Positions 48,441 through 64,000 of a stretch of 64,000 nucleotides of DNA are shown one piece after another. Both the position numbers and the translations under genes were made by a program. This DNA comes from Burkholderiales bacterium (GTDB lineage Bacteria > Bacillota > Clostridia > Christensenellales > SZUA-584), in NCBI GenBank assembly GCA_050260375.1, contig JBLNCA010000037.1:137844-201843 (forward strand). Direction: 5' to 3'. The notes below the pieces were generated by a model. The model had not been told where the DNA came from. It made no database searches and worked only from the letters and a program-made list of their open reading frames with translations. Within the stretch, counting starts at the first letter, position 1; every line of letters starts with the position of its first letter.

Positions 48441-48515
48441 TGCGTTATAATTAAGTGGTTAGACCAGTATTTCTCTCCTCCGTTGAAGGAAAGGACATAT
48501 CTTAAGGAGGTACAT

Positions 48516-49925: not shown

Positions 49926-49940
49926 AAAGAAAGATTGCAT

Positions 49941-50985: not shown

Positions 50986-51014
50986 TTGACAAAACGATAT
51001 TACACTATTATAAT
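50986..51014 (+). promoter_or_regulatory. Sigma-A promoter upstream of the ROK regulator
   Basis: TTGACA-N17-TATAAT. Confidence 0.7.
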
Positions 51015-52495: not shown

Positions 52496-52525
52496 TTGAC
52501 AAATGAACATGCAGGTTATTATAAT
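52496..52525 (+). promoter_or_regulatory. Sigma-A promoter upstream of the RpiR regulator
   Basis: TTGACA-N18-TATAAT, bracketed by the 10-bp inverted repeat ATGCTTATAT / ATATAAGCAT. Confidence 0.6.
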
Positions 52526-52632: not shown

Positions 52633-53478
52633 ATGGTACTTGGGAGCCATGTGCTTGAAAATATCCGCGCAAACTACGATGAGATATTTTCGGCGGAAAA
52701 GAAGGTTGCGGACTACATTCTGAAAAACCCTGAAAATACGATAAGGCTGAATGTGTCCGCGCTGGCCGAACTAAGCGGCACAAGCGACGCGACGGTAATA
52801 CGCCTGTGCCAGCACCTCGGGTATAAGGGCTTTTACCAGATGAAGCTGCAATTGGCGCATGATCTGGGCAGCGAGCAGCTTTTTAGCGGCAACATACAGC
52901 CTAAGGACCCGGACAACGCAGACGACGTGCTTAAGGAAGTCGTGTCCAACATAATGTACGCAAAGGCGAATGTGGACAGCGGAGTCTTAAAAAAATGCGT
53001 TGAACTGATACTCGGCTGCAATACGGTACACCTTGTTGCGGCGGGCAACTCGATACCGACCGCGATAGATTTCGCGTTCAGGCTCGGCCGCGTGGGAATA
53101 CATACAAACAGCTCGTTCATGCCCGAGCAGCAGCTTAACGGAGTAAACCTCGGGTCGGATAAGGACGTAATGATAGGCATCTCGCATTCAGGCAGTTCAA
53201 AGCAGGTGCTGCAGGCGTTTGAACTTGCAAAGAAACGGAACATGACAACAATATCGGTAACAGACCTGACGGGCAGCCCGGTAACCAAGACGTCCGATTA
53301 CTCGATATCGACAGGCATAGAGTTCTCCAGCGTTTATATCTTCGGCGCGGCGTCGCACATATACATTTCGGCAATACTTGACATACTTCTTTACTTCGTT
53401 GCCCGCGCAAAGAAGAACGAAGCCAAAAACGGAGAAACGGACAACGTAGAATACTTCTTATCGGAAACAAAGATTTGA
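52633..53478 (+). CDS. RpiR/MurR-family regulator (HTH_6 + SIS)
   Basis: FSAEKKVADYILKNPE..LAELSGTSDATVIRLCQHLGYKGF (HTH), then SIS blocks (VHLVAAGNS, IGISHSGSS). ATG 52633 lies 7 nt after AAAGGA. Confidence 0.85.
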   Translation: MVLGSHVLENIRANYDEIFSAEKKVADYILKNPENTIRLNVSALAELSGTSDATVIRLCQHLGYKGFYQMKLQLAHDLGSEQLFSGNIQPKDPDNADDVLKEVVSNIMYAKANVDSGVLKKCVELILGCNTVHLVAAGNSIPTAIDFAFRLGRVGIHTNSSFMPEQQLNGVNLGSDKDVMIGISHSGSSKQVLQAFELAKKRNMTTISVTDLTGSPVTKTSDYSISTGIEFSSVYIFGAASHIYISAILDILLYFVARAKKNEAKNGETDNVEYFLSETKI

Positions 53479-53500
53479 GGCACACTCAGGAGGAACACCG

Positions 53501-54820
53501 ATGGCTTACCATGACAGCTACGTGCAGTATTACAGGCAGCTGCCTGCCGACATAAAAAGACATAAATCAAGCGGCCTCGGTGTAATAATGGGCTACACGA
53601 GCGATCTTGACGTCATAATCGAATGGAACGGCCAAACGTTTAAAGACATATTATCGGCTTATCTGAAAGAGGAGCCGGCTTTAAAGCCCGGCGATACGAT
53701 AGACTCGATGGAATCTTTTGCGCGCATAGTGTGCTATTACATGATTCACGGGCTGGGCGGAGAGATAGACATAACAAACATCGAAGTATGCAAGTTTCTG
53801 GAAAGCAGGTTCAATACGGCGTTTGCGCTCGGCGGGACATGCGCGCAGGGCGCGGCGGCGCTCAATGCGGTGGGTTTTCCGGTTCTCGTACACATAACGG
53901 ACAGGTCGAGGGAAGTCTGCGTACAGATGAACGGGCAGGGCCTTGATACCGTTACGGAGCGAGGACGGGTTCCGATAATGGAAAGCGCGACTAAAGCACC
54001 GCCCGTGCGCCATATGATACTGCAGTACCCCAAGGGCGAGAAGATAGACATAAACGGAACCGTATACGAAACGCCCGTTTCCAACAGGCTAATAATGGAT
54101 TACGATACGGTACACAAAATGATGCCCATTGATAAATGCTTCCTGGATTACTGCGAAGCCAACGCAAAGCGCATGCTGGTATACAGCGTATCGGGTTTTA
54201 ACGGCATTATTGACCGCGGCATAATGGAAAAGAGGATAGACGAGGTTTCGGCGCATTATAAAAAGGTCAAGGAACAAAACCCGGGCTGCGTGATATTTCT
54301 TGAAGGCGCGCACTATCTAAACGCAGAGCTTAAAAACCTTGTGATTGAAAGGCTCTCGCGGCACATAGACATATACAGTATGAACGAGGAAGAACTCGTT
54401 GAGCATACTGCAAAGCACGGCATGCTTACTGATAAGGATAGTCTTTCTTCCATACTCGGAGGGCTTGAGTTCATGTTGGAAAGATACCCTGTTAAGGGTA
54501 TGGTTCTCCACACAAAGGATTATTCAATGTACTTTGGCGACGAACTCAGAAGGGCAGACTTCGAAAAAGGCCTTACACTGGGCAACCTGATGTCGGCAAC
54601 AAGGGCCAGAACGGGAAAATACGGAACATACAGCGATTGCGGCGAATCGCTGAGTCTGCCCTTAAGCCCCTCAGGGGTTGCTTTCGCGGAGCAACTCAAA
54701 TCGCTGCGGACGGGGAAGCACGTTTGTTTGGTGCCCTCGCGATATATGGAGCATCCGAAATATACGATAGGCCTTGGCGACACGTTTATGGCGGGGTTCC
54801 TCACATCTTTCGCAGACTGA
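53501..54820 (+). CDS. ADP-dependent glucokinase/phosphofructokinase-family (PF04587-like) sugar kinase
   Basis: 439 aa. MGYTSDLDVI, ALGGTCAQGAAALN, a NEEE (NxxE) motif, and GLGDTFMAGF only ~15 aa from the C-terminus. Size and motif spacing fit the ADP-dependent branch rather than PfkB. Confidence 0.55.
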   Translation: MAYHDSYVQYYRQLPADIKRHKSSGLGVIMGYTSDLDVIIEWNGQTFKDILSAYLKEEPALKPGDTIDSMESFARIVCYYMIHGLGGEIDITNIEVCKFLESRFNTAFALGGTCAQGAAALNAVGFPVLVHITDRSREVCVQMNGQGLDTVTERGRVPIMESATKAPPVRHMILQYPKGEKIDINGTVYETPVSNRLIMDYDTVHKMMPIDKCFLDYCEANAKRMLVYSVSGFNGIIDRGIMEKRIDEVSAHYKKVKEQNPGCVIFLEGAHYLNAELKNLVIERLSRHIDIYSMNEEELVEHTAKHGMLTDKDSLSSILGGLEFMLERYPVKGMVLHTKDYSMYFGDELRRADFEKGLTLGNLMSATRARTGKYGTYSDCGESLSLPLSPSGVAFAEQLKSLRTGKHVCLVPSRYMEHPKYTIGLGDTFMAGFLTSFAD

Positions 54821-54833
54821 CAGGAGGATTACA

Positions 54834-56336
54834 GTGGCGTTACTGATGGGAATTGACCTTGGCACGTCCAGCCTAAAGACAATAATAATAAATGAGTCGG
54901 GCGCACTGAAAGCGCTGAGCCACCGCGAATATACTTTTGATTCTCCCCGCCAGGGTTATGCGGAGCAGGATCCCGAAGTCTGGTGGAAAGCCTGCTGCGA
55001 AACCGTCAGAGAAGCCATTGCGGCATGCGGCTCTCCCGCGTCCGAGATTGCGGGGGTGAGTTTTTCCGGCCAGATGCACGGCCTTGTCATGTTGGACCGC
55101 GAATACCGCGTCGTGCGCCCGGCGATATTGCACTGCGACGCCCGCTCCGACGAGCAGGTTGAAGAGCTTCGTTTAGAGTTCGGCAAAGACGGCGTATGCA
55201 GGCATATGATGAACCCCGTTTATACGGGATTCCTGCTGCCTTCGCTTATGTGGGTAAGGCGGCATGAGCCCGAAAACTACGAAAAGATACGCTACGTATG
55301 CCTGCCCAAAGACTATCTTAAATTCAGGATGACAGGAGAGCTTTCTTCGGATTATTCGGACGCTTCCGCCACGCTTGCTTTTGACATTATAAGCGGCGTG
55401 TGGTCAAAGCATATACTTGAGCGCGTAAGCGTACCTTCCGAGCTTTTTCCGCGCTGCTACGGGACGACTGAGAATACCGGCCGCGTATGTGCGAGTGCGG
55501 CGCAGCAGACAGGCCTTTCGGAAAAGACGGCCGTTGCGGCGGGCGGCGGGGACCAGGTAATGCAAAGCATAGGCAACGGCATGGTTAAGCCGGGAGACGC
55601 GACGGTCAATATAGGCAGCAGCGGGCAGGTCAGCTTCCAGATAGATAAACCGGTGCTTAACCCGGAGCTGAATACGAATATGTTCTGCGGCTACAGAAAG
55701 GGAAGCTGGATACTTTTCGGAGCGACGATGACGGCGGGGCTGTCGCTTGTCTGGTGGCACAGGATAATAGGCGATATAAACTATGACGTGCTGAATAGGG
55801 AAGTCGGCGCCGTCCTGCCCGGAAGCGGCGGGGTGGTATTCCTGCCGTATCTTAACGGGGAGCGGACGCCTCATGTGAACCCGAATTTAAGCGGCATGTT
55901 CCTCGGCGTCAATATAGGAACAACCCGCGCGCATATGACAAAAGCCGTAATGGAAGGCGTCGCGTTCTCGCTGATGCAGTGTATAGAGATATGCGAAAGC
56001 CTCGGGTTTAAAGCGGAAACGCTCGTGGCGTCGGGCGGGGGAGCAAGGAGCAAACCGTGGCTGCAGCTGCAGGCGGATATATACAACATACCGCTGAGGG
56101 TTTCCGAAACGACGGAGCAGGCCGGCATGGGCGCGGCACTTGCGGCGGGCGTGGGAGCCGGAGTGTATTCGGACCTGGAGGAAGCCTGCCGGGCCGCGGT
56201 GAGCTACAAAGACGAGCTGATTATACCCGACCCGCAGCGCCATCAGGTATACAGCGAATACTACGGGCTTTATAAGGAAGCGTATCTCTCAAGCAAGGAT
56301 GAGCTTAAAAAAGCCGCTTTGATGGGGAGAAAGTAA
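54834..56336 (+). CDS. FGGY-family kinase (xylulokinase-like)
   Basis: MGIDLGTSSLKT, GQMHGLVMLD and GGGARS motifs. GTG 54834 lies 6 nt after AGGAGG. Confidence 0.85.
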   Translation: MALLMGIDLGTSSLKTIIINESGALKALSHREYTFDSPRQGYAEQDPEVWWKACCETVREAIAACGSPASEIAGVSFSGQMHGLVMLDREYRVVRPAILHCDARSDEQVEELRLEFGKDGVCRHMMNPVYTGFLLPSLMWVRRHEPENYEKIRYVCLPKDYLKFRMTGELSSDYSDASATLAFDIISGVWSKHILERVSVPSELFPRCYGTTENTGRVCASAAQQTGLSEKTAVAAGGGDQVMQSIGNGMVKPGDATVNIGSSGQVSFQIDKPVLNPELNTNMFCGYRKGSWILFGATMTAGLSLVWWHRIIGDINYDVLNREVGAVLPGSGGVVFLPYLNGERTPHVNPNLSGMFLGVNIGTTRAHMTKAVMEGVAFSLMQCIEICESLGFKAETLVASGGGARSKPWLQLQADIYNIPLRVSETTEQAGMGAALAAGVGAGVYSDLEEACRAAVSYKDELIIPDPQRHQVYSEYYGLYKEAYLSSKDELKKAALMGRK

Positions 56337-56367
56337 GCAAGCACAATATTAAGGTGAGGTGATATAT

Positions 56368-57894
56368 TTGGCCGAGAACGTTAAAAAGGATTACGAATAT
56401 ATACTGGACTGTCAGGGCATCTACAAGGCGTTCGGCGGAACGCACGCGCTGCAGGACGTTCAGTTCCGCGTAAAGAAAGGCCAGGTACACGCGCTTTTAG
56501 GCGAGAACGGCGCCGGAAAGTCGACGTTGATGAAGATAATAATCGGCCTTATCAACAAGGACGCGGGCGAAATAACGTTCGAAGGGAAACCGTACAACGT
56601 CAGCGGCCCCGCCGAAGCTATAAAAGCCGGGATATCGATGATTCATCAGGAGCTGAACCCCGAGCCTTATCTGTCGATAGCCGAGAGCATATTCCTAAAG
56701 CGCGAAGACACTTTTAAGCATCTGCCGTTTCTTAACAAGGGGGAAACCAACCGCAAGGCGGCCGAGATACTTAAACAGTACAACTTGAACCTCAGCCCCA
56801 AGATGCTCATGGAACAGCTTACGCTCGCCCAGATGCAGATGATAGAGATACTTAAAGCGGTATCGTGCAACGCGCGGCTTGTGATAATGGACGAGCCGAC
56901 GTCTTCGCTGGACAGCGAGGAAACCGAGCGGCTGTTCGAGACTATACGCAGCCTCAAAGAGCAGGGCGTAACGGTAATATATATATCTCACCGCATGGAA
57001 GAAATATTCAAGATATGCGACTCGTATTCGGTGTTCCGCGACGGCAGGTTCATAGGGTCGGGCAATGTTGCGGATATAACGTCCAACGATCTGATATCGA
57101 TGATGGTCGGGCGAACTGTAGAGAACATATTCCCCAAAGTAGATTGCAAGATAGGCGACGTTGTGTTCAAGGCGGAAGGGCTAACCGGCAAGGGATTCAG
57201 CGACATCAGCTTTGAAGTCCGCAGTGGAGAGATACTTGGTATCGCGGGGCTCGTCGGCTCGGGACGCAGCGAAACCATGCGCGCCATATTCGGGCTTGAT
57301 CCTCTTTGGAGCGGCAAGATGTATTTAAACGGTAAAGAGCTGAAGATAAAGAGCCCCGGCGACGCGATCGGAAAGGGCATAGCGATGATAAACGAGGACC
57401 GCAAAGACTACGGCCTGTGCCTTTTCAGGTCGATACGCGAAAACATATCGCTTCCCAACCTGCGCAGCAGGCAGAGAGGCTTGCTGCTTAACCAGAAGAG
57501 GGAAAAGGCTGAATGCAGAGACGTCGCCAGGACGCTTACCGTTAAAATGGCAAGCATAGAATCCGAGGCGTTCTCGCTGAGCGGCGGCAATCAGCAGAAG
57601 GTGGTCATTTCAAAATGGGTAATGGCGAAGCCCAAGCTGCTTATCATGGACGAACCGACAAGGGGCGTAGACGTAGGCGCTAAGGCTGAGATACACGCGC
57701 TGATGAGCAAATTTGCCTCGGAGGGAATGGCGATAATAATGGTCTCCTCAGAATTGCCGGAGATAATGGGCATGAGCGACAGAATACTCATATATCACGA
57801 AGGCAGGCTCAACGGAGAAATATTCCGCAAAGATATACTTTCGGGCAAGGCAGACCAGGAATATATACTGGCAAAAGAATTTGGTGAGAAATAG
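56368..57894 (+). CDS. Sugar ABC importer ATPase (RbsA/MglA-type, duplicated NBD)
   Basis: GENGAGKST and IMDEPTSSLD in the first NBD; LSGGNQQKV and IMDEPTRGVD in the second. The TTG 56368 versus GTG 56359 start is uncertain. Confidence 0.88.
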   Translation: MAENVKKDYEYILDCQGIYKAFGGTHALQDVQFRVKKGQVHALLGENGAGKSTLMKIIIGLINKDAGEITFEGKPYNVSGPAEAIKAGISMIHQELNPEPYLSIAESIFLKREDTFKHLPFLNKGETNRKAAEILKQYNLNLSPKMLMEQLTLAQMQMIEILKAVSCNARLVIMDEPTSSLDSEETERLFETIRSLKEQGVTVIYISHRMEEIFKICDSYSVFRDGRFIGSGNVADITSNDLISMMVGRTVENIFPKVDCKIGDVVFKAEGLTGKGFSDISFEVRSGEILGIAGLVGSGRSETMRAIFGLDPLWSGKMYLNGKELKIKSPGDAIGKGIAMINEDRKDYGLCLFRSIRENISLPNLRSRQRGLLLNQKREKAECRDVARTLTVKMASIESEAFSLSGGNQQKVVISKWVMAKPKLLIMDEPTRGVDVGAKAEIHALMSKFASEGMAIIMVSSELPEIMGMSDRILIYHEGRLNGEIFRKDILSGKADQEYILAKEFGEK

Positions 57895-57904
57895 GGAGGA
57901 AACC

Positions 57905-58885
57905 ATGGACGCAAAGAAGGAAAAAAGGATCCTCGGGATGGATCAGCATGATTTCAGTCTTTTTATGAAACGTTACGGAATTGTTTTCGTAATGATAGGC
58001 ATGTTTATTGTACTGTCGATCGCTTCGCCCAAGTTTCTGACGATGAGCAACATAACAAACGTGCTCTCTACCGTTGCATTGAACGGCGTGCTGGCGATGG
58101 GCATGGTGTTCGTAATAACGGCGGGAGGCATCGACCTCTCGATAGGCTCGATGCTCGCGCTCGCAAGTACCACAATAGGCGTTGTGCTGCAGCTTACCGG
58201 CGACAACCTGCTCGCGTGTATCGCCGCGGTAATTGCGTGCGGAATACTGGGATTGTTAAACGGGCTGCTCGTTGCAGGATTCAACATGTTCCCGTTCGTC
58301 GTGACGCTCGCGAGCCAGCTCGTTATACGCGGCCTCGGGTACGTGCTGTCGGGCGGATACTCGTTCGCTCTTGCCAACCCGTCGTTTACGCAGATAGGCC
58401 TCGGCAAGCTGTTCGACGCGATTCCCTACCCGATACTGATACTATTCGGCGTAACGATTTTATCCTACATACTGATGCACTGGACGAAATTCGGACGCTA
58501 CGTATATGCAACGGGCGGTAACATAAACGCCGCAAGAGCTTCGGGAGTCAACATATTCTGGACGCGCGTACTCACATACGTAATAAGCGGCACATTCTCG
58601 GCAATCGCGGGGATTATAATGACGGCCCGTATAAACGCCGCGCAGCCTAATATAGGCGTGGGCTACGAGACTGACGCAATTGCGGCCTGCGTAATAGGAG
58701 GCACCTCGTTCGCGGGTGGCATATCGACAATACCTGGAACGCTCGTAGGCATAGTGATAATAGGGCTCATCTACAACGGCATGAACCTTATAGGCATCGA
58801 GTCGTACTGGCAGACGATATTCAAAGGCCTGCTGATAATTGGCGCCGTCATGCTGGACATGACAATAAACAGAAAACGCTCATAA
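57905..58885 (+). CDS. Sugar ABC permease (RbsC-type)
   Basis: About 9-10 TMs, with TAGGIDLSIGS and GGTSFAGG motifs. ATG lies 5 nt after GGGAGG. Confidence 0.85.
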   Translation: MDAKKEKRILGMDQHDFSLFMKRYGIVFVMIGMFIVLSIASPKFLTMSNITNVLSTVALNGVLAMGMVFVITAGGIDLSIGSMLALASTTIGVVLQLTGDNLLACIAAVIACGILGLLNGLLVAGFNMFPFVVTLASQLVIRGLGYVLSGGYSFALANPSFTQIGLGKLFDAIPYPILILFGVTILSYILMHWTKFGRYVYATGGNINAARASGVNIFWTRVLTYVISGTFSAIAGIIMTARINAAQPNIGVGYETDAIAACVIGGTSFAGGISTIPGTLVGIVIIGLIYNGMNLIGIESYWQTIFKGLLIIGAVMLDMTINRKRS

Positions 58886-58960
58886 TCCGAGCAAATACAA
58901 ACGATAAAAGTTCTTTACCCCCAAAAGGGTTAAGATAAAAAAAAACTAGGAGGAAACAAA

Positions 58961-59983
58961 ATGAAGAAAGTATTAGCACTTGTAACTGTGTTGCTTCTGG
59001 TTGTGGCTTTTGCGGCATGTTCCGGAACGGCTACGCCGTCGGCACCGGCTTCACAGGCGCCCGAAAAATCGGAAGCTCCCGTATCTGAAGCGCCCGCTTC
59101 GCAGGAGCCGGCCGCCAGTGAAATCAACGTAGCCTATATCGCAAAGAACACAGTGGACGCGTTCCATGCAACGCTGAACGGCGCAGCCGAAAAGGCCCTC
59201 GACGCTCTCGTAGCGGACGGAACGATCGCCAAATGGCAGCTCTACGACGGCCTTACCGATCCTAACACGCAAGTCAACCTGATCGAAGACGCCATAAACA
59301 ACGGCGCAAACTTCGTTATACTGCTTCCCGCTGAAAGCGAAGGCAGCGCGCCTGTTGTAAAACGCTGCGCAGATGCAGGCATTCCTATAGTTGTCGTAAA
59401 CTCGATGACGAACAACACGGATGAACTTGCCACTTCGTTCGTTGGCTCCGACGACGTTGAGGCCGGTGAGATAATGGCCAACTTCGTAATTGAGCAGCTT
59501 CCGGAAGGCGGCAAGTACGCTCATATGATGGGTATCGTAGGCAACTCCGCTCAGATTCAGAGGGGCGAAGGCATTGCGAACATCATGGGCAAGAACGACA
59601 AGTGGGAAAGCGTTGGCGATTTCGCGGCTGACTGGTCGGCTGACAAAGCGGTTCAGTTTGCTACGGACGCTCTGACGCAGTACGGCGACGAGCTCAAAGC
59701 CATCATCTGCGACAACGACGACATGTCGTCCGCGGTTCAGGCTTACTGCAACTCCGTTGACCGCAAAGACATCGTCTGCATCGGCGTAGACGGCAATGCC
59801 GGCCCGCTCCAGATGGTCAAAGACGGAACGCTCCGCGCAACGGTGCTTCAGGACGGCGCAGCTCAGGTAGAAGCCGCTATAGCGCTTATACCGGACATCA
59901 TCGCTAAAAAGACCGTTGAGAAGAAGATAATGATCCCCTTCACGCTGGTTACGCCCGAGAACGTTGACCAGTATCTCAAATAG
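58961..59983 (+). CDS. Sugar-binding lipoprotein (RbsB-type periplasmic binding protein fold)
   Basis: Lipobox VAFAAC, a Ser/Pro/Ala/Glu linker, then a type I PBP pattern (IAKNTVDAFH..VVNS..ICDNDDM). Confidence 0.8.
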   Translation: MKKVLALVTVLLLVVAFAACSGTATPSAPASQAPEKSEAPVSEAPASQEPAASEINVAYIAKNTVDAFHATLNGAAEKALDALVADGTIAKWQLYDGLTDPNTQVNLIEDAINNGANFVILLPAESEGSAPVVKRCADAGIPIVVVNSMTNNTDELATSFVGSDDVEAGEIMANFVIEQLPEGGKYAHMMGIVGNSAQIQRGEGIANIMGKNDKWESVGDFAADWSADKAVQFATDALTQYGDELKAIICDNDDMSSAVQAYCNSVDRKDIVCIGVDGNAGPLQMVKDGTLRATVLQDGAAQVEAAIALIPDIIAKKTVEKKIMIPFTLVTPENVDQYLK

Positions 59984-60019
59984 TAAAACATTATGAGGGA
60001 ATCAGGAGAATGAATGAGG

Positions 60020-60057
60020 GGTTAGAAGCGGCCCTTATGAAAGGGCTGCTTCTAACC
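60020..60057. repeat. 17-bp-stem hairpin downstream of the binding-protein gene
   Basis: GGTTAGAAGCGGCCCTT-atga-AAGGGCTGCTTCTAACC with one G-U pair and no U-tract. Confidence 0.8.
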
Positions 60058-60065
60058 AAAATGAA

Positions 60066-60083
60066 GCGCTATTTAAATAGCGC
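60066..60083. promoter_or_regulatory. Perfect 18-bp palindrome (candidate operator)
   Basis: GCGCTATTTAAATAGCGC, about 170 nt upstream of the aldolase gene. Confidence 0.4.
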
Positions 60084-60255
60084 AGGGAACGCAACAAACG
60101 CCATCATATATAGAAAAGCACAGATGAAAATCGGCGTCAGATATTCACTGTATGCCAAAACAAAAGCGGCGTGGGTCAGCCGCTACTAACTTTTTGAAAA
60201 AAATGTCGGCTTAAGCCGGTATTGATTATAATTTAAAAATTGGAGGAATGCAACT

Positions 60256-61125
60256 GTGTTAGTGAACATTAAGGAGATATTGGCGGTAGCCAATGAACGC
60301 AATTTCGCAATACCGGCATTTAATATAGGCACCGGCCAGATACTGAAGGCAGTTATTGAATGTTCGGAAGAGAAGAAAGCGCCTGTTATATTGGCGGTGC
60401 ATCCAAAGGAACTCGAGTTTCAGGGCGACAGCTTCATGGCTAGCTGCATAAGCGCCGCAAACGCGGCAAAGGTGCCGGTATGCGTTCATATGGACCACAG
60501 CACCAGCCTTGAACAGGTGCTGCACGCCGTACGCACCGGTTTTACGTCCGTTATGATAGACGCTTCGCACCTGCCGTTTGAGGAAAACGTAGCCATATCA
60601 AAGAAAGTCGTGGAAATGGTACATCCGCTGGGCGTCTCCGTAGAGGCCGAGCTCGGCACTATAGGCACGACGGACAACGATAAAGAAGGCGGCGCGGAAG
60701 ATATCATATACACCGACCCGGACGACGCGGCGAGGTTTGTGGAAGCGACGGGTATAGACTGCCTCGCGATAGCGATAGGCACGGCGCACGGCATATACCC
60801 CAAAGGCTTCAAGCCTGAGCTCAAGCTCGACCTTTTAAGCAAGATAAAAAGAAGAGTAAGCATTCCGCTGGTGTTGCACGGAGGCTCCGCCAATCCCGAC
60901 GAAGAGATAGCCAAGAGCGTAAAGCGCGGTATAAACAAGATAAACATATCCTCGGATATAAAGGACGCTTTCTATCAGCAGCTGAGGAAAACGCTGTCCG
61001 CCGACGCAAAAGTGCGCGAGCCGTTTGAGCTTTATGTCGACAGCATTAACGCGATGAAAAAGGTGATCAACCAAAAGATAGATCTTTTCAATGCCGCAAA
61101 TCAAATTCAATACTACAAACTATAG
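60256..61125 (+). CDS. Class II ketose-bisphosphate aldolase (FbaA/GatY/KbaY family)
   Basis: FAIPAFNI, HMDH, EAELGTIG, AIGTAHG and LVLHGGS motifs. Confidence 0.88.
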   Translation: MLVNIKEILAVANERNFAIPAFNIGTGQILKAVIECSEEKKAPVILAVHPKELEFQGDSFMASCISAANAAKVPVCVHMDHSTSLEQVLHAVRTGFTSVMIDASHLPFEENVAISKKVVEMVHPLGVSVEAELGTIGTTDNDKEGGAEDIIYTDPDDAARFVEATGIDCLAIAIGTAHGIYPKGFKPELKLDLLSKIKRRVSIPLVLHGGSANPDEEIAKSVKRGINKINISSDIKDAFYQQLRKTLSADAKVREPFELYVDSINAMKKVINQKIDLFNAANQIQYYKL

Positions 61126-61181
61126 GCTGAAAAGAGTATCAACACCGTTATTATTTTGTATTTGACAAGGGAGGCAATCTT

Positions 61182-62384
61182 ATGTCCAAAGAACGGATTA
61201 AAGAGATATTTAAAAAGGGAAACGGAGTGCTTCAGCTTACCCCGACGTGGGTTCCGAGAGGGTTTAACGAACCGGGGCGCAGACTAAGGCTTCATCCCGA
61301 CGATTATTTCGCGTTCGGCATGGACCGCGGCGGTATATGCGAACGCTGGCTAGGCTCTGTCACCGTTGCGCTGAACGGACCTAAGACCGGCCCGACGGAA
61401 GGCATGAGCTTTGTGCTTGCTGACGCAGCGACAGGCGAGAAGATACTTTTCGCTGACGCAGTGGAAGAGCTGGGCGCCGACCTTATAGGCGAAGAATTGC
61501 AAAATAAATATGGCACCTGGCCCACGTTTGCCAAGCTTTACGATTACGACAAGCCGCTGTTCCATCACCTGCACCTTACCGAACAGCTTGCGCAGCGCAT
61601 AGGCCGCCACGGCAAGCCGGAAGCGTATTATTTCCCAATACAGTACAACGGGTACCTCGGAAGGTTCCCGCTCACATATTTCGGGTTCGACCCGTCCACT
61701 ACCAAGGAACAGGTAAAAGACTGCATACGGAACTACAGCAAGTTTGATACGCGCATAACCGAGCTTTCGCGTGCTTACAGGATACAGCTGGGCACCGGCT
61801 GGTACACTCCCGCGGGCGTCATACACGCTCCCGCTTCCGTCGTGACGTACGAGCCGCAATGGAACAGCGACGTCAACACTATAATGGAAAACGTGACGAT
61901 GGGCGAAGTCAACCCGCCAAATCTGCTTACCGACTGCCAGCCTCCCGAAGAGAAGGGCGATGTGGAAGCGCTGTTTGCTCAGATAGACTGGGAAGAGAGC
62001 ACCCGTCCCGACTATAAGGAGAAGTATTTCAGGGCTCCGAAGGCTATCCCGGAAACGCAAAAAGGGCTGACGGAAAAATGGGTCGCTTACGCAAACGAAT
62101 GGATAGGGGCAAAAGAAGTAACGGTTGCGCCCGGAGCTAGCGTTCAGCTGTACGACGAAGCATGCTACTGCGCTCTCGTGGTTCAGGGTCACGGAAAGTT
62201 CGGAGTGTTTGAATGCGAGTCGCCAGGGGTTTTGAGATTCGGCGACATCTCCGGCGACGAGTTCTTCGTATCCGAAGCTTCCGCCAAAAAAGGAATAGAA
62301 ATCGTTAACACCGGCAAGTACGAGCCTCTTGTAATATTGCAGAACTTTGCCAACAACAACCCTGCGGTACCGCAGACGGTCTAG
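61182..62384 (+). CDS. Cupin-type sugar isomerase, class I phosphomannose-isomerase-like
   Basis: FAKLYDYDKPLFHHLHL and GKPEAYYF resemble the PMI zinc-site blocks (QVHP / KPE.WY); 400 aa. The assignment is weak. Confidence 0.4.
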   Translation: MSKERIKEIFKKGNGVLQLTPTWVPRGFNEPGRRLRLHPDDYFAFGMDRGGICERWLGSVTVALNGPKTGPTEGMSFVLADAATGEKILFADAVEELGADLIGEELQNKYGTWPTFAKLYDYDKPLFHHLHLTEQLAQRIGRHGKPEAYYFPIQYNGYLGRFPLTYFGFDPSTTKEQVKDCIRNYSKFDTRITELSRAYRIQLGTGWYTPAGVIHAPASVVTYEPQWNSDVNTIMENVTMGEVNPPNLLTDCQPPEEKGDVEALFAQIDWEESTRPDYKEKYFRAPKAIPETQKGLTEKWVAYANEWIGAKEVTVAPGASVQLYDEACYCALVVQGHGKFGVFECESPGVLRFGDISGDEFFVSEASAKKGIEIVNTGKYEPLVILQNFANNNPAVPQTV

Positions 62385-62396
62385 GAGGCTTAAATT

Positions 62397-63254
62397 ATGT
62401 ATTTTAAATTTGGCGTAGACAGCTTTATATGGACTGAAAGCTTTAGCGAAAAGGATATCTGGATAATCGAGAAAGCAAAGGATATGGGCTTTGAGGTCAT
62501 AGACTTCGCGATATCAAACCCGTTTACGTTCCCCACTGGCAAAGTCAAAAGCGAACTTGAGCGGGTGGGCATAGAATGCGTATGCACGACTACGCTGACG
62601 CCGGCGACAAATCCCATATCTCCCGATCCCGCAGTGCGCGCCGAAGCGGTAAAGGCAATGAAAAAGTGCGTGGATATATGCAACGAGCTGGGCGCGCCCA
62701 TACTCGGCGGCGTCAACTATGCCGCGTGGGGATATCTTACCAGGCGCCCGCGCACAGACGAGGAATGGAATTGGGGCGTCGAGTGCATGCGGGAGTCCGC
62801 ACTGTACGCCAAGGAAACAGGCAGCGTCGTTATATGCGTAGAGTGCGTAAACCGTTTTGAGACGCACTTTTTAAACATCGCGGAAGACGCGGTGAAGTTC
62901 TGCAAGGATGTGGGCACAGGCAATATGAAGGTGCACCTTGACTGCTTCCATATGATACGCGAGGAGAAGAGCTTCTCGGGCGCCGTCAAAACATGCGGCA
63001 AGGAATACCTTGGGTATATACATGTGAATGAGAACGACCGCGGCATACCGGGCACGGGGCTTGTGCCTTTTAAGGAATTCCTTGCGGCGGTGGCCGAAGT
63101 TGGGTACGACGGGCCGCTGGTAATAGAGTCGTTCGACCCGAGCTTTACGGAACTCGCGGGCAACTGCGCAATATGGAGAACGTTCGCGCCGACCGGCGAA
63201 GCGCTCGCCAGAGATGGCCTTGCCAACCTAAAGGCTATCGCGGCGCAGCTGTAG
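62397..63254 (+). CDS. Xylose-isomerase-like TIM-barrel ketose 3-epimerase (DTE/DPE family)
   Basis: FGVDSFIWTE, CVECVNRFE, HLDCFHM, IHVNENDRGIPGTG and VIESF motifs. Confidence 0.75.
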   Translation: MYFKFGVDSFIWTESFSEKDIWIIEKAKDMGFEVIDFAISNPFTFPTGKVKSELERVGIECVCTTTLTPATNPISPDPAVRAEAVKAMKKCVDICNELGAPILGGVNYAAWGYLTRRPRTDEEWNWGVECMRESALYAKETGSVVICVECVNRFETHFLNIAEDAVKFCKDVGTGNMKVHLDCFHMIREEKSFSGAVKTCGKEYLGYIHVNENDRGIPGTGLVPFKEFLAAVAEVGYDGPLVIESFDPSFTELAGNCAIWRTFAPTGEALARDGLANLKAIAAQL

Positions 63255-63365
63255 TAATGCGGACTTTGGCGCCAAGGATGCAATATCCTTGCCATATGAA
63301 TTAGAACCGTTAAAGACCGGCGGGAAGAAAAAACGTACTGAGTTTTAAAAGGAGGGCGGCGACAT

Positions 63366-64000
63366 ATGAACAGGATAGTAAACGATCCTAATTTTGTTGT
63401 CGAAGACATGCTCAAAGGCTTTATTAAAGCCAACAGGGATATAGTGGCGGCAACCGATAACCCGAGGGTGCTGAAGTACTCTGAAGCGCCCATAAAGGGA
63501 AAGGTGGGCATAGTAACGGGCGGAGGCTCGGGGCATAAACCTGCGTTCATCGGCTACATAGGAAAAAACATGTGCGACGCCGTAGCCGTGGGCGAAATAT
63601 TCTCGTCGCCTACCGCGGCAGCGTTTTTTGACGCAATGAAGGCTGCCGATTCGGGACGGGGCGTTGCATGCCTTTACGGCAACTACGCGGGCGACAACAT
63701 GAACGTAAAGATGGCTATGCGCAAAGCCAAAGAAGCGGGTATAGAAGTAAGAACCGTAGTAGCCAACGACGACTGCGCCTCGGCTCCCAAAGAAGAAAGG
63801 GAAAAACGCCGCGGCGTGGCGGGCGAAGTGCTTATGTGGAAGGTGGGAGGAGCGAAAGCCGCTATGGGCGCAGACCTGGATGCAGTCATAGCCGCCGCGC
63901 AGAAAGCGATAGACAACACGCGCTCCGTCGGCATAGGAACCGCGCCCTGCACGATACCCGCTGTCGGCCATCCCAACTTTACGATAGAAGACGGCAATAT
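63366..64000 (+). CDS. Dihydroxyacetone-kinase DhaK-type subunit (3' end outside window)
   Basis: Not in the ORF track because it runs off the window. My translation gives MNRIVNDPNFVVEDMLKGF..GKVGIVTGGGSGHKPAFIGYIG..ACLYGNYAGDNMN. ATG follows AAAGGAGGG. The motif reads GHKP where I expect GHEP. Confidence 0.8.
   Translation, partial: MNRIVNDPNFVVEDMLKGFIKANRDIVAATDNPRVLKYSEAPIKGKVGIVTGGGSGHKPAFIGYIGKNMCDAVAVGEIFSSPTAAAFFDAMKAADSGRGVACLYGNYAGDNMNVKMAMRKAKEAGIEVRTVVANDDCASAPKEEREKRRGVAGEVLMWKVGGAKAAMGADLDAVIAAAQKAIDNTRSVGIGTAPCTIPAVGHPNFTIEDGN

What the first reader, a model, noticed from the sequence alone, without database searches (positions are those of the whole stretch)
52633..64000. 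Ketose/rare-sugar island combining three unrelated kinase families with an aldolase, a cupin isomerase and a 3-epimerase
- **Content.** One co-directional cluster encodes an RpiR(SIS) regulator, an ADP-dependent-kinase-like protein, an FGGY kinase, an RbsACB-type importer and a class II ketose-bisphosphate aldolase. It continues with a PMI-like cupin, a DTE-type ketose 3-epimerase and a DhaK subunit that runs past the window edge.
- **Why it is unusual.** The parts do not match any textbook operon I can name (als, gat/kba, tagatose, erythritol).
- **Possible pathway (inference).** The substrate is imported, converted by 3-epimerisation or isomerisation of a free ketose, phosphorylated twice, and cleaved by the aldolase. 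DhaK would then handle the unphosphorylated triose.
- **Open question.** The substrate is unknown.
Basis: inference. Interest (0 to 1): 0.6.

Follow-up and report, generated by a model that had tools for sequence, protein, structure and literature searches.

The report
Conserved sugar-breakdown gene cluster, substrate unknown
This is a real, widely shared but uncharacterised set of about twelve sugar-breakdown genes in anaerobic bacteria; it probably splits an unusual, possibly seven-carbon, sugar and salvages the four-carbon fragment, so it points to a pathway nobody has yet described.

Summary
**Observation.** Confirmed. The cluster ends 1 kb past the window edge with DhaK and DhaL, and the genome has no DhaM.

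**Unannotated gene.** The 400-aa protein has a mannose-6-phosphate isomerase (PMI) type I fold. It belongs to a large family that has no Pfam model.

**Conservation.** The same gene set recurs in shuffled order in 40-50 of 80 related loci, from Christensenellaceae, Lachnospiraceae, Oscillospiraceae, Flexilinea and a Planctomycetota MAG. Where it is split into separate operons, the parts still co-occur genome by genome. It is therefore one functional module, though probably at least two transcription units.

**No known match.** None was found in NCBIfam or the paper library. The apiose, als, gat/kba and tetritol pathways all fail membership tests.

**Best reading (inference).**
- An Rbs-type importer takes the sugar up, and the ADP-kinase-like enzyme makes a ketose-1-phosphate.
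- The class II aldolase releases DHAP plus a free tetrose.
- The PMI-like isomerase, the DTE-like epimerase, the ATP-type DhaKL (acting as erythrulose kinase) and RpiB convert the tetrose to erythrose-4-phosphate.
- This implies a C7 substrate.

Its ketohexose/triose scheme is less well supported.

**Rating.** New variant of a known kind; moderate interest.

The parts
52496..52525 (+). Consensus sigma-70-type promoter (TTGACA-18-TATAAT) ahead of rpiR
   Evidence: The scan gives 12 of 12 matches. The sequence was read directly. Function was not tested.
52633..53478 (+). RpiR/MurR-family regulator (HTH_6 + SIS domain), the likely phosphosugar-responsive repressor of the module
   Evidence: Pfam PF01418 scores 78 bits and PF01380 48 bits. 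It falls below every NCBIfam equivalog cut-off; AlsR scores 99 bits against a cut-off of 400. A homologue is present in 37 of 80 related loci.
53501..54820 (+). ADP-dependent-kinase-family (ribokinase-fold) sugar kinase, here 'ADPK'. It is the constant kinase of the module and is proposed to act as a ketose 1-kinase.
   Evidence: - PF04587 scores 108 bits over the full length. It falls below the equivalog cut-offs for ADP-GK and ADP-PFK.
- In the alignment to ancMT and P. horikoshii GK, GLGDT and NEEE are kept, NxNxD becomes TSDLD, and Glu87 aligns with ancMT E72.
- It is present in 45 of 80 loci. It is rare in the class: 2 of 300 genomes.
54846..56336 (+). FGGY-family kinase of the xylulokinase clade, an accessory second kinase
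   Evidence: - TIGR01312 scores 489 bits, above the 380 cut-off.
- The best PDB matches are xylulokinases 5vm1 and 2itm.
- It is only 23% identical to E. coli apulose kinase AplK.
- It is absent from several otherwise complete loci.
- The ORF opens at 54774, but the conserved N-terminus starts near Met25.
56359..57894 (+). RbsA-type double ABC ATPase (CUT2 monosaccharide importer)
   Evidence: PF00005 occurs twice. It falls below the RbsA, XylG, AraG and AlsA equivalog cut-offs.
57881..58885 (+). RbsC-type permease
   Evidence: PF02653 scores 142 bits. It overlaps rbsA by 14 nt.
58961..59983 (+). RbsB-type substrate-binding lipoprotein
   Evidence: - PF13407 scores 161 bits.
- The lipobox reads VVAFAAC and is followed by a Ser/Pro/Ala linker.
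- The best PDB relatives are CUT2 binding proteins at about 90-104 bits, with no close liganded homologue.
59984..60255 (+). Structured spacer holding a U-less hairpin, an 18-bp palindrome, a terminator-like hairpin with a T-run (60165-60195) and a TTGATTATAAT box. It is the probable boundary between two transcription units.
   Evidence: The 3' half is conserved in L002 and L003. There is no Rfam match. No operator motif is shared with the rpiR promoter region.
60256..61125 (+). Class II (zinc) ketose-phosphate aldolase, PRK08185 subfamily
   Evidence: - PF01116 scores 322 bits, and NF006042 scores 423 bits, above the 405 cut-off.
- The closest solved structures are AgaY and class IIb FBAs. 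YdjI is also hit.
- It is present in 49 of 80 loci.
- Orthologues at 61-63% identity occur in 10 of 10 ADPK-positive genomes where it is unlinked, and in 0 of 5 ADPK-negative genomes.
61182..62384 (+). PMI-type-I-fold bicupin isomerase of a family with no Pfam model ('Unk'). It is proposed to be a free aldose-ketose isomerase.
   Evidence: - It has no Pfam or NCBIfam hit.
- It has more than 6000 homologues and 1547 representative clusters.
- H129, H131, K145, E147, H215, E224 and Q226 are invariant.
- hhalign against a canonical PMI gives probability 97.6%.
- The model has pLDDT 95.3, and Foldseek hits PMIs 1zx5 and 1qwr at E about 2e-18.
62397..63254 (+). DTE-family ketose 3-epimerase-like TIM barrel
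   Evidence: - PF01261 scores 127 bits.
- The best PDB hits are ketose, allulose, tagatose and L-ribulose 3-epimerases at E about 1e-40.
- The family motifs ECVNRFE, LDCFH, HVNENDR and IESF are present.
- The NF051856 psicose 3-epimerase model scores 167 bits, below the 300 cut-off.
63366..64000 (+). DhaK subunit, cut by the window edge. The full gene runs to window coordinate 64364, and DhaL follows at 64375-65013.
   Evidence: - Full-length Dak1 scores 383 bits and Dak2 176 bits.
- It falls below the DhaK equivalog cut-off, 347 bits against 406.
- The motifs GSGHKP and GIGHHGEPG are present.
- The genome has no DhaM.
- It is 70% identical to a paralogue that sits beside a DthD-family SDR and an RpiB on contig C45.

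Best explanation
The region is one conserved, horizontally spread catabolic module for a neutral sugar that has not been identified. It is organised here as two probable transcription units: rpiR-adpK-fggy-rbsACB and ald-unk-epi-dhaKL.

**Proposed route. All steps are inferred; none has been shown biochemically.**
1. The Rbs-type ABC importer takes up the sugar.
2. If the sugar is an aldose, the PMI-fold isomerase (Unk) converts it to the 2-ketose.
3. The ADP-kinase-family enzyme phosphorylates C1.
4. The class II aldolase cleaves the ketose-1-phosphate into DHAP plus a free, unphosphorylated aldotetrose.
5. Unk isomerises the tetrose to erythrulose.
6. The DTE-like 3-epimerase interconverts L- and D-erythrulose.
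7. The DhaM-less, hence ATP-type, DhaK/DhaL kinase makes erythrulose phosphate.
8. An RpiB-type isomerase gives erythrose-4-phosphate. RpiB lies inside the cluster in most relatives and is supplied from elsewhere in this genome.

**What this implies.** A three-carbon plus four-carbon split implies a seven-carbon substrate, that is, a heptose or heptulose. L-glycero-D-manno-heptose, via L-galacto-heptulose, would need every enzyme in the set. The xylulokinase-like FGGY kinase is an accessory second entry or salvage kinase.

**My odds.**

| Claim | Odds |
|---|---|
| One functional module | about 0.9 |
| DhaKL is an erythrulose kinase feeding erythrose-4-P | about 0.65 |
| The aldolase releases a free tetrose from a C7 ketose-1-P | about 0.35 |
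| The substrate is specifically an L-glycero heptose | about 0.15 |
For: **One module.**
- The same 12-13 families recur in shuffled order and orientation in 80 loci from at least four phyla. Counts are RbsA 50, Ald 49, DhaK 46 plus 9 fused, ADPK 45, FGGY 40, RpiR 37, RpiB 33, Epi 27 and DUF4432 17. No other family appears in more than 9 loci.
- Ten genomes carry Unk-Epi-RpiB-DhaKL as a stand-alone operon. All ten also carry a separate RpiR-ADPK-FGGY-RbsACB operon and a 61-63% identical aldolase. Five genomes with Unk in other contexts carry neither.
- Among relatives, ADPK and a high-identity Unk (73-96%, within about 8 kb) co-occur in 5 of 5 ADPK-positive genomes and 0 of 5 ADPK-negative genomes.

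**Tetrulose branch.**
- RpiB lies between Epi and DhaK in 20 of 23 loci.
- DhaL is fused to RpiB in L074.
- The order DhaK2-DhaL2-RpiB-TIM recurs in 8 loci. It mirrors Brucella EryH and EryI.
- The in-cluster RpiB hits the D-erythrulose-4-P isomerase model at 167 bits, which is below that model's cut-off.
- The window's DhaK is 70% identical to a paralogue that sits in a cluster with an ABC importer, a GolD/DthD-family SDR (350 bits, above the 286 cut-off), DhaK, DhaL and RpiB. That matches the layout of the M. smegmatis D-threitol route (pathway as described in PMC10733421 and PMC12994016).
- The genome has no DhaM.

**Enzymes that appear to act on free sugars.**
- Epi keeps the DTE residues that bind O1 to O3 of a ketose.
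- Unk keeps the PMI metal site but lacks the basic residue of the PMI 'YR(I/V)YDY' stretch. The own-genome PMI reads ...NSNLTYRIYDYGR, whereas Unk reads ...NSDVNTIMENVT.
- ADPK carries Glu and His at positions that are GK-like rather than PFK-like.

**Order and precedent.**
- The gene order Ald-Unk-Epi-(RpiB)-DhaKL follows the proposed reaction order.
- From established knowledge, PF01116 aldolases that release an unphosphorylated aldehyde exist. Examples are B. subtilis IolJ and E. coli YdjI; YdjI is also a PDB hit.
Against: - No biochemical, growth or expression data exist for any member.
- No substrate assignment is possible from the binding protein, which is only 24-30% identical to liganded homologues.
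- The scheme leaves the FGGY kinase without a necessary role, although it is present in about 85% of loci and passes the XylB model cut-off.
- This window's own cluster lacks RpiB, so the last step must be borrowed from one of four paralogues.
- The aldolase's closest relatives are bisphosphate aldolases. I could not check its distal-phosphate site.
- DhaK-family enzymes also phosphorylate dihydroxyacetone and glyceraldehyde, and a TIM paralogue beside DhaK fits a triose equally well.
- Free heptoses are not known growth substrates for these bacteria.
- Unk would have to act on both a heptose and a tetrose, or one isomerisation step is unassigned.
- Residue-level inferences rest on alignments at 15-25% identity.
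Confidence: 0.4

Rival explanations
1. A rare ketohexose (psicose, tagatose or sorbose) is imported and 3-epimerised or isomerised as a free sugar. FGGY phosphorylates it at C6 and the ADP-PFK-like kinase at C1. The bisphosphate is then cleaved to DHAP plus GAP. DhaKL mops up free dihydroxyacetone or glyceraldehyde.
For: - The DTE-like epimerase has all the family motifs, and its best PDB hits are psicose and tagatose 3-epimerases.
- The aldolase is closest to tagatose- and fructose-bisphosphate aldolases.
- Two kinases sit beside the importer.
- An RpiR regulator and a CUT2 importer resemble the allose system.
Against: - Cleaving a bisphosphate yields no free triose, so DhaKL, the most constant partner of Unk, has no role.
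- RpiB is fused or adjacent to DhaL, and neither it nor Epi has a job on a triose.
- FGGY is missing from several complete loci.
- ADPK looks GK-like rather than PFK-like at two specificity positions.
- Epi falls below the psicose-epimerase equivalog cut-off, 167 bits against 300.
Confidence: 0.2
2. The substrate is itself a four-carbon sugar (erythrulose, erythrose or threose). It is imported directly and converted by Unk, Epi, DhaKL and RpiB to erythrose-4-P. ADPK and the aldolase then provide a sedoheptulose-bisphosphate route that feeds erythrose-4-P into central metabolism, because the organism lacks transaldolase.
For: - All the evidence for the tetrulose branch applies.
- The genome has no canonical transaldolase, only 19-bit fragments.
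- M. smegmatis polyol-binding proteins 4rs3, 5hko and 4rsm are among the best PDB hits of the binding protein. That their ligands are C4/C5 polyols is from memory.
Against: - A kinase is not needed to go from sedoheptulose bisphosphate to sedoheptulose-7-P.
- ADPK looks like a free-sugar kinase.
- Free tetroses are scarce in nature.
- Aldolase-Unk adjacency and the gene order suggest the aldolase acts before Unk.
- The FGGY kinase is unexplained.
Confidence: 0.12
3. This is a pentose route. An aldopentose such as D-lyxose or D-ribose is isomerised by the PMI-like cupin and the pentulose is 3-epimerised by Epi. The XylB-like FGGY kinase phosphorylates it to xylulose-5-P, and RpiB serves the pentose-phosphate pathway. 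ADPK and the aldolase provide a pentulose-1-P side route, or the transaldolase bypass.
For: - FGGY passes the XylB equivalog cut-off.
- PMI-fold enzymes and cupins are known to isomerise lyxose- and mannose-type sugars (established knowledge).
Against: - FGGY is the dispensable kinase, and ADPK, Ald, Unk and DhaKL form the constant core.
- DhaKL has no role.
- Cleavage of a pentulose-1-P gives glycolaldehyde, and the cluster encodes no enzyme to handle it.
Confidence: 0.1
4. The genes are unrelated sugar operons that merely lie side by side. On this view there is no single pathway.
For: - A terminator-like hairpin and a separate promoter-like box lie between rbsB and the aldolase gene.
- No shared operator motif was found.
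- The halves are unlinked in some Lachnospiraceae.
Against: - The families co-occur in 40-50 of 80 loci in different orders.
- Genome-level co-occurrence is perfect where the parts are unlinked: 10 of 10 against 0 of 5, and 5 of 5 against 0 of 5.
- ADPK is otherwise very rare, at 2 of 300 genomes.
Confidence: 0.03

Closest known systems
Mycobacterium smegmatis tetritol pathways (DthD/EltD, DerK/LerK, LerI, DerI; Huang et al. 2015, as summarised in PMC10733421 and PMC12994016)
   Same: Both use a Dak-family kinase acting on erythrulose, followed by an RpiB-type D-erythrulose-4-P isomerase to erythrose-4-P, with a CUT2 ABC importer. An L-to-D conversion step is needed in both. The genome's second cluster on contig C45 (DthD-family SDR, DhaK, DhaL, RpiB) looks like a true counterpart.
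   Different: - The window cluster has no polyol dehydrogenase.
- It adds an aldolase, an ADP-kinase-family enzyme, an FGGY kinase and a PMI-fold isomerase.
- Its kinase is split into DhaK and DhaL.
- Its epimerase is DTE-like and predicted to act on the free ketose.
Brucella erythritol pathway lower half (EryC racemase, EryH/TpiA2, EryI/RpiB; Barbier et al. 2014, cited from memory and via PMC10733421)
   Same: A xylose-isomerase-fold epimerase, a TIM paralogue and an RpiB paralogue convert a tetrulose phosphate to erythrose-4-P. Relatives of the window cluster carry either Epi plus RpiB or TIM plus RpiB next to the Dha kinase.
   Different: - Brucella phosphorylates erythritol first, with an FGGY kinase, and then oxidises it.
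- Here there is no dehydrogenase, and the kinase belongs to the Dak family.
Isomerase-kinase-aldolase pathways (L-fucose FucIKA, L-rhamnose RhaABD) and mammalian fructolysis (ketohexokinase, aldolase B, triokinase)
   Same: The logic is the same: make a ketose, phosphorylate C1, cleave to DHAP plus a free aldehyde, then deal with the aldehyde. Mammalian triokinase is a Dak homologue, and ketohexokinase belongs to the ribokinase superfamily, as ADPK does.
   Different: All four enzyme families differ from the Fuc and Rha enzymes. The aldehyde-handling branch here (isomerase, epimerase, Dak kinase, RpiB) is much longer and fits a tetrose, not lactaldehyde or glyceraldehyde.
E. coli D-allose operon (alsR-alsBAC-alsE-alsK, rpiB)
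   Same: Both have an RpiR-family regulator, a CUT2 importer, an associated RpiB and a 3-epimerisation step.
   Different: - The epimerase is DTE-fold, not RPE-fold.
- There is no ROK allokinase in the module.
- An aldolase, a PMI-like protein and DhaKL are added.
- All the Als equivalog models score far below their cut-offs.
Class II aldolases that cleave monophosphates: B. subtilis IolJ and E. coli YdjI
   Same: They share the PF01116 fold and release DHAP plus an unphosphorylated aldehyde. YdjI is a PDB hit.
   Different: The substrates of IolJ and YdjI are acid sugars. The window aldolase falls in the PRK08185 subfamily, which has no characterised member that I know of.
D-apiose transketolase pathway (ApsI, AplK, AptAB; Carter et al. 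2018, as described in PMC13001218)
   Same: Both have a CUT2 importer, an FGGY kinase and an isomerase acting on an unusual plant sugar.
   Different: - There is no transketolase.
- FGGY is only 23% identical to AplK, and the binding protein 24% identical.
- Apulose chemistry does not suit a DHAP-dependent aldolase.

Membership tests
Type I phosphomannose isomerase (for the 400-aa protein) | Bicupin PMI fold | tested here: met
   The AlphaFold model has pLDDT 95.3. Foldseek's top hits are PMIs 1zx5, 1qwr, 3h1m and 1pmi, with E from 2e-18 to 4e-13 and target-normalised TM up to 0.79.
Type I phosphomannose isomerase (for the 400-aa protein) | Metal-binding site (Gln/His, His, Glu, His) in the conserved blocks | tested here: met
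   hhalign gives probability 97.6%. It aligns HHLHL with VQVHP, KPEAYY with KHEAWY, and IHAP with VHAL. H129, H131, E147 and H215 are invariant across the family. The Gln ligand is replaced by His.
Type I phosphomannose isomerase (for the 400-aa protein) | Recognised by the curated family models (PF20511, PF20512, PF01238; NCBIfam) | tested here: not met
   There is no Pfam or NCBIfam hit at E up to 1, for the protein or for 27 divergent relatives. Profile and single-sequence searches of PDB sequences give E of about 1.
Type I phosphomannose isomerase (for the 400-aa protein) | Basic residue that binds the sugar phosphate, after the HA...E...SD block | tested here: inconclusive
   The own-genome PMI has ...NSNLTYRIYDYGR, while Unk has ...NSDVNTIMENVT, with no Arg or Lys. 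The hhalign alignment stops just before this stretch, and the role of the Arg is from memory.
D-tagatose/D-psicose 3-epimerase (DTE) family | Catalytic and metal residues Glu-Asp-His-Glu, plus the Glu/His/Arg residues that bind O1 to O3 | tested here: met
   ECVNRFE, LDCFH, HVNENDR and IESF were read in the translation. PDB hits to ketose 3-epimerases have E of about 1e-40. The residue roles are from memory.
D-tagatose/D-psicose 3-epimerase (DTE) family | Reaches NCBIfam's D-psicose 3-epimerase equivalog cut-off | tested here: not met
   NF051856 scores 167 bits against a cut-off of 300.
ADP-dependent glucokinase/phosphofructokinase family (PF04587) | Full-length match to the family model, with the catalytic GXGD and NXXE motifs | tested here: met
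   PF04587 scores 108 bits over residues 28-432. GLGDT and NEEE align with the archaeal enzymes.
ADP-dependent glucokinase/phosphofructokinase family (PF04587) | Glucose or fructose-6-P specificity (equivalog level; NxNxD sugar-binding motif) | tested here: not met
   Every equivalog model scores far below its cut-off, for example 111 bits against 387. NxNxD is replaced by TSDLD.
ADP-dependent glucokinase/phosphofructokinase family (PF04587) | Use of ADP rather than ATP as phosphoryl donor | not testable with these tools
   This needs an enzyme assay.
PTS-dependent dihydroxyacetone kinase DhaKLM | DhaM phosphotransfer subunit present | tested here: not met
   TIGR02364 has no match in the 96%-complete genome. 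There is none next to DhaL. DhaK falls below the TIGR02363 cut-off, 347 bits against 406.
Tetritol/erythritol-type erythrulose-phosphate pathway (M. smegmatis, Brucella) | Dak-type or FGGY kinase, plus an RpiB-type erythrulose-4-P isomerase, plus an epimerase or TIM-type isomerase | tested here: inconclusive
   - In relatives, DhaKL is joined to RpiB (20 of 23 loci, and one fusion) and to Epi or TIM.
- The window itself lacks an in-cluster RpiB.
- The in-cluster RpiB scores 167 bits on the DerI model, against a cut-off of 240.
Tetritol/erythritol-type erythrulose-phosphate pathway (M. smegmatis, Brucella) | Polyol dehydrogenase that generates the tetrulose | tested here: not met
   No dehydrogenase lies in window positions 52633-65013. 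None is conserved in more than 9 of 80 loci.
D-allose (als) operon | AlsR, AlsBAC, AlsE (RPE-fold) and AlsK (ROK) at orthologue level | tested here: not met
   AlsR scores 99 bits against 400, AlsA 485 against 772, AlsC 214 against 396, and AlsB 91 against 335. The module has no RPE-fold epimerase.
Galactitol / N-acetylgalactosamine / tagatose (gat, kba, lac) pathways | PTS uptake, a tagatose-6-P kinase (PfkB or LacC), and aldolase at equivalog level | tested here: not met
   There are no PTS or PfkB genes in the cluster. The tagatose-bisphosphate aldolase equivalog models score below their cut-offs: TIGR01858 at 272 bits against 444, KbaY at 226 against 542.
D-apiose transketolase pathway | AplK-type FGGY kinase and the split transketolase AptA/AptB | tested here: not met
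   No transketolase occurs in the window cluster or among the conserved neighbours. FGGY is 23% identical to E. coli SE15 AplK.
Xylulokinase (XylB) | Reaches the TIGR01312 equivalog cut-off | tested here: met
   It scores 489 bits against a cut-off of 380. The E. coli-type model NF011601 is not reached, at 290 bits against 912. The substrate was not tested.

The most novel reading that the evidence does not exclude
The module is the first catabolic pathway for seven-carbon sugars. Candidates include the L-glycero-D-manno-heptose of Gram-negative lipopolysaccharide cores and plant heptuloses. The route would run through a heptulose-1-phosphate aldolase and a salvage path that turns the released free tetrose into erythrose-4-phosphate.

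If so, it would also give the first physiological roles to three enzyme groups:
- a large PMI-fold isomerase family that has no Pfam model;
- a DTE-type ketose 3-epimerase, a class known mainly as an industrial catalyst.
Probability: 0.25. Interest if true: 0.8.

Novelty: new variant of a known kind. Interest (0 to 1): 0.55.

Why it matters
- **An unassigned, well-defined sugar pathway.** Sugar-catabolic gene clusters are the main way gut and digester anaerobes partition nutrients. This one is tightly conserved: the PMI-like protein stays 74-96% identical across phyla. It is rare and patchy, present in 2 of 300 genomes sampled in the class and in 3 of 6 genomes in the genus. It matches no known pathway. 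A well-defined, experimentally tractable pathway is therefore still unassigned.
- **Functions for uncharacterised families.** Solving it would assign functions to three groups. These are a bacterial branch of the ADP-dependent kinase family, a family of more than 6000 PMI-fold proteins that domain databases do not recognise, and the PRK08185 aldolase subfamily. It would also give a natural role to a DTE-type epimerase.
- **If the substrate is a heptose.** It would reveal how bacterial cell-envelope or plant C7 sugars are recycled. No route for this is known to me, and none turned up in the paper library.

Tried and rejected
- **Known apiose pathway: rejected.** I fetched the E. coli SE15 cluster. 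AplK is only 23% identical to the FGGY kinase, the binding protein only 24% identical, and there is no transketolase here.
- **First structure prediction: unusable.** It used a shallow alignment (sequences at least 69% identical) and gave pLDDT 71 with only generic cupin hits. It was superseded by a model built on a diverse alignment.
- **Sequence searches for the 400-aa protein: nothing.** A profile HMM search of PDB sequences and Pfam scans of 28 diverse family members found nothing.
- **Literature: no paper describes the gene set.** Seven searches covered kinase, aldolase and epimerase combinations, erythrulose kinase, bacterial ADP-dependent kinases, apulose, DUF4432 and heptulose catabolism.
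- **Shared RpiR operator: not found.** Between the two promoter regions only the -10 boxes match.
- **Rfam scan of the spacer and cluster: no match**.
- **Empty-site comparison: not possible.** In a genus-mate that lacks the cluster, synteny is not kept; only one flanking gene was found.
- **Transaldolase search.** It returned only 19-bit fragments, so it bears only weakly on the sedoheptulose-bisphosphate idea.
- **Triose reading for DhaKL: considered and rated lower.** It gives RpiB and the epimerase no role.
- **Class II 'fructose-6-P aldolase' reading: considered and rejected.** It would yield dihydroxyacetone plus GAP, but there is no precedent in this fold.

Full report
**1. What is in the sequence**

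ORF listing and Pfam/NCBIfam scans confirm a co-directional run on the + strand.

| Gene | Window coordinates | Key evidence |
|---|---|---|
| RpiR regulator | 52633-53478 | HTH_6 + SIS |
| ADP_PFK_GK-family kinase ('ADPK') | 53501-54820 | PF04587, 108 bits |
| FGGY kinase, xylulokinase clade | about 54846-56336 | TIGR01312, 489 bits, above the 380 cut-off |
| RbsA / RbsC / RbsB-type importer | 56359-59983 | Binding protein is a lipoprotein |
| Class II aldolase | 60256-61125 | PRK08185 subfamily, 423 bits, above the 405 cut-off |
| 400-aa protein ('Unk') | 61182-62384 | No family hit |
| DTE-like TIM barrel ('Epi') | 62397-63254 | PF01261 |
| DhaK | from 63366 | PF02733 |

- The window is C37:137844-201843 of a 2.88-Mb, 57-contig assembly.
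- Reading on past the window edge, DhaK ends at window coordinate 64364 and DhaL lies at 64375-65013.
- A 300-bp gap follows, then unrelated genes: MobA-like/HD, an AMP-binding enzyme, XdhC and others.
- The genome has no DhaM, so the kinase is of the DhaM-independent, presumably ATP-using, type.
- Upstream, a ROK regulator with its own consensus promoter (51109-52329) is conserved only in the closest relatives. I do not count it as part of the module.
- GC content shows no clear break.

**2. The unannotated protein**

- Unk has no Pfam or NCBIfam match, even at E up to 1.
- It has more than 6000 homologues, and the listed ones are 77-96% identical across Clostridia, Flexilinea and a Planctomycetota MAG.
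- An exhaustive profile search finds 1547 representative clusters. None of 28 diverse members is recognised by Pfam.
- A first AlphaFold run on a shallow alignment was poor.
- With the diverse alignment A2 the model reaches pLDDT 95.3.
- Foldseek then puts type I phosphomannose isomerases first: 1zx5, 1qwr, the Salmonella PMIs and 1pmi, with E from 2e-18 to 4e-13.
- hhalign of A2 against the genome's own canonical PMI gives probability 97.6% and E 3.9e-12. It aligns HHLHL with VQVHP, KPEAYY with KHEAWY, and IHAP with VHAL.
- The aligned His, His, Glu and His residues are invariant in the family.
- The stretch that in canonical PMIs carries the Arg of 'YR(I/V)YDY' has no basic residue in Unk. 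I read this, cautiously, as a sign that Unk acts on unphosphorylated sugars.

**3. Is it one system?**

*Neighbourhoods.* A scan of one genome per species returned 80 loci encoding Unk relatives at 69-96% identity.
- tblastn of all window proteins against these loci, plus an unsupervised clustering of every ORF, show the same families again and again in different orders and orientations.
- Counts in 80 loci are RbsA 50, RbsC 49, Ald 49, DhaK 46 (plus 9 fused DhaK-DhaL), ADPK 45, FGGY 40, DhaL 40, RpiR 37, RbsB 34, RpiB 33, Epi 27 and DUF4432 17.
- No other family reaches 10 loci. The next are an SDR (9 loci) and a TIM paralogue (8 loci).

*Unlinked operons.* Ten Lachnospiraceae genomes carry Unk-Epi-RpiB-DhaK-DhaL as an isolated operon.
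- All ten also have exactly one ADPK orthologue, inside a separate RpiR-ADPK-FGGY-RbsACB operon.
- All ten also have one aldolase at 61-63% identity at a third place.
- Five genomes in which Unk sits in other contexts have no ADPK, and no aldolase above 51% identity.

*Relatives.* Among 40 relatives of the window's genome, ADPK occurs in only 4: 2 of 5 genus-mates, 2 of 19 family-mates and 0 of 16 order-mates.
- Each of these, and the single other hit among 300 genomes sampled across the class, has a 73-96% identical Unk within about 8 kb. Five ADPK-negative relatives have none.
- A caveat: the ten Lachnospiraceae genomes are probably related to each other, so the counts are not independent events.
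- Even so, this is strong evidence for a single functional module that moves horizontally.

*Transcription units.* The module is probably not a single transcript.
- The 272-bp rbsB-ald spacer holds a terminator-like hairpin with a T-run, followed by TTGATTATAAT.
- Both elements are conserved in the two closest relatives.
- In many genomes the two halves are divergent or unlinked.
- No shared operator and no Rfam element was found.

**4. What the lower half does**

The most constant partnership is Unk with DhaK/DhaL. Several observations link the Dha kinase to tetrulose rather than triose chemistry.
- In 20 of the 23 full-length loci with a high-identity DhaK, an RpiB/LacAB-family gene lies between Epi and DhaK. 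The window and its two closest relatives are the exceptions, and the genome has four RpiB paralogues elsewhere.
- In L074, DhaL and RpiB are one fused protein, followed by a TIM paralogue.
- A second variant, DhaK2-DhaL2-RpiB-TIM, recurs in eight loci.
- On contig C45 the genome has a second cluster. It runs ABC importer, SDR of the GolD/DthD family (350 bits, above the 286 cut-off), DhaK (70% identical to the window's), DhaL, RpiB.
- That layout matches the M. smegmatis D-threitol route: dehydrogenase, then D-erythrulose, then Dak-type kinase, then RpiB-type isomerase, then erythrose-4-P.
- The pairing of an xylose-isomerase-fold epimerase or a TIM paralogue with RpiB recalls EryC, EryH and EryI of Brucella (pathways as described in PMC10733421 and PMC12994016).
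- From established knowledge, Dak-family kinases bind their substrate through a hemiaminal to an acyclic carbonyl. Only short sugars (C3, C4) are plausible substrates.
- A 3-epimerase and an RpiB-type isomerase have nothing to do on a triose. On a tetrulose they act as a racemase and as the final isomerase.
- Epi keeps the DTE catalytic residues and the residues that bind O1 to O3, which fits a free ketose with a free C1 hydroxyl.

I therefore read Unk-Epi-DhaKL-(RpiB) as free aldotetrose, then L-erythrulose, then D-erythrulose, then D-erythrulose-4-P, then erythrose-4-P (odds about 0.65).

**5. What the upper half does**

- The aldolase gene is usually next to Unk. ADPK and FGGY sit with the regulator and importer.
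- FGGY is absent from about seven otherwise complete loci, so ADPK is the essential kinase.
- In the alignment to archaeal ADP-dependent kinases, ADPK keeps the catalytic GLGDT and NEEE.
- It has TSDLD in place of the NxNxD sugar-binding motif.
- It has Glu87 at the position of ancMT E72, and a His where glucokinases have one and PFKs have Asn-Arg. The role of E72 is from memory.
- This favours a free sugar over a sugar phosphate as its substrate.
- A class II aldolase needs a C1 phosphate, which becomes the DHAP half.
- The simplest scheme is therefore ketose, then ketose-1-P by ADPK, then DHAP plus a free aldehyde. IolJ and YdjI are precedents for PF01116 enzymes that release unphosphorylated aldehydes.
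- If the aldehyde is a tetrose, the substrate has seven carbons.
- L-glycero-D-manno-heptose would isomerise to L-galacto-heptulose, which has fructose-like C3/C4 stereochemistry.
- Cleavage would give L-threose, whose conversion to erythrose-4-P needs every enzyme in the set. This is chemical reasoning, not evidence.

I give the C7 reading about 0.35 and this particular sugar about 0.15. FGGY remains unexplained. It may provide a second entry, for example 7-phosphorylation of sedoheptulose-type sugars.

**6. Rivals**

It leaves DhaKL, RpiB and TIM without roles.
- Direct tetrose uptake with a sedoheptulose-bisphosphate bypass (0.12) fits the apparent lack of a canonical transaldolase. It gives ADPK no sensible reaction.
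- A pentose route (0.1) fits the XylB-like kinase but not the constant core.
- Chance juxtaposition (0.03) is contradicted by the co-occurrence data.

**7. Comparison with known systems**

- All NCBIfam equivalog models for the allose, ribose, xylose, tagatose, psicose-epimerase, ADP-GK/PFK and DhaK families score below their cut-offs. The exceptions are XylB (TIGR01312) and the uncharacterised PRK08185 aldolase subfamily.
- The E. coli apiose cluster was fetched and compared. It is not related: 23-24% identity, and no transketolase here.
- Seven full-text searches found no description of this gene set.
- Earlier first-stage notes from this scan place Unk homologues in other sugar operons. Those contexts include FucI-like isomerase plus FGGY, an L-xylulose-type route, and a 'tetrose/erythrulose-type' operon.
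- These notes are consistent with a family of free-sugar isomerases, but they are unchecked.

**8. Verdict**

- The module is a new combination of known enzyme folds, so I rate it a new variant of a known kind. Its substrate is unknown, and a specific, testable hypothesis is available.
- Interest is moderate (0.55). It would be high if the heptose reading proves true.

Noticed in passing
Contig C45:204200-216700 of the same genome (L086:4208-16697): This is a second sugar cluster. It contains GlpA-like FAD dehydrogenases, an FGGY kinase, an FAD-linked oxidase, a DhaK-like protein (51% identical), an RbsACB-type importer, a GolD/DthD-family SDR, DhaK (70%), DhaL (52%) and RpiB. It looks like a tetritol (threitol/erythritol) utilisation locus in an anaerobe.
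   Followed up: partly
L074:16374-17501 (Lachnospiraceae MAG JAAVBZ010000023.1): DhaL is fused to RpiB in a single 375-aa protein, followed by a TIM paralogue. The fusion sits in a glycoside-hydrolase-rich locus (GH43, GH38-like, GH127, DUF6259, CUT1 importer) that carries Unk but has no ADPK or aldolase orthologue.
   Followed up: partly
L022:10565-14567 (Lachnospiraceae MAG JAVXHR010000008.1): A second, divergent set sits next to the main module: RpiR, a class II aldolase-like protein (32%), an ADPK-like kinase (24%, 402 aa) and another aldolase (53%), with a CUT1-type importer. This suggests that the ADP-kinase-family/class II aldolase pairing recurs for other sugars.
   Followed up: no
Own genome, C10:26435-26569 and C25:101158-101271 (L108, L109): The only transaldolase-family matches in the genome are 19-bit fragments inside 447-448-aa ORFs. 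These ORFs lie near RpiB paralogues, DUF4432 genes and further FGGY and aldolase genes. The organism may lack a canonical transaldolase and has at least two more unassigned sugar clusters.
   Followed up: no
window 48483-50837: A 480-aa URO-D/MtaA-like protein is followed 10 nt later by a homocysteine S-methyltransferase-family protein, between a mutarotase and the ROK regulator. An earlier first-stage note already flagged this pair.
   Followed up: no
window 50986-51014 and 51109-52329: A perfect TTGACA-17-TATAAT promoter precedes a ROK-family regulator with an N-terminal HTH. The regulator is conserved next to the module only in the four closest relatives.
   Followed up: partly
L001:13216-14514 (window coordinates 75215-76513, beyond the window): A group II intron reverse transcriptase/maturase gene lies about 10 kb downstream of the cluster.
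   Followed up: no
L016:8862-9953, L033:8951-9934, L070:8988-9986 and 14 further loci: A DUF4432 protein (about 330 aa) is inserted immediately upstream of Unk in 17 of 80 loci. It often replaces the Epi/RpiB pair and accompanies a more divergent DhaK2/DhaL2. Its role is unknown.
   Followed up: partly
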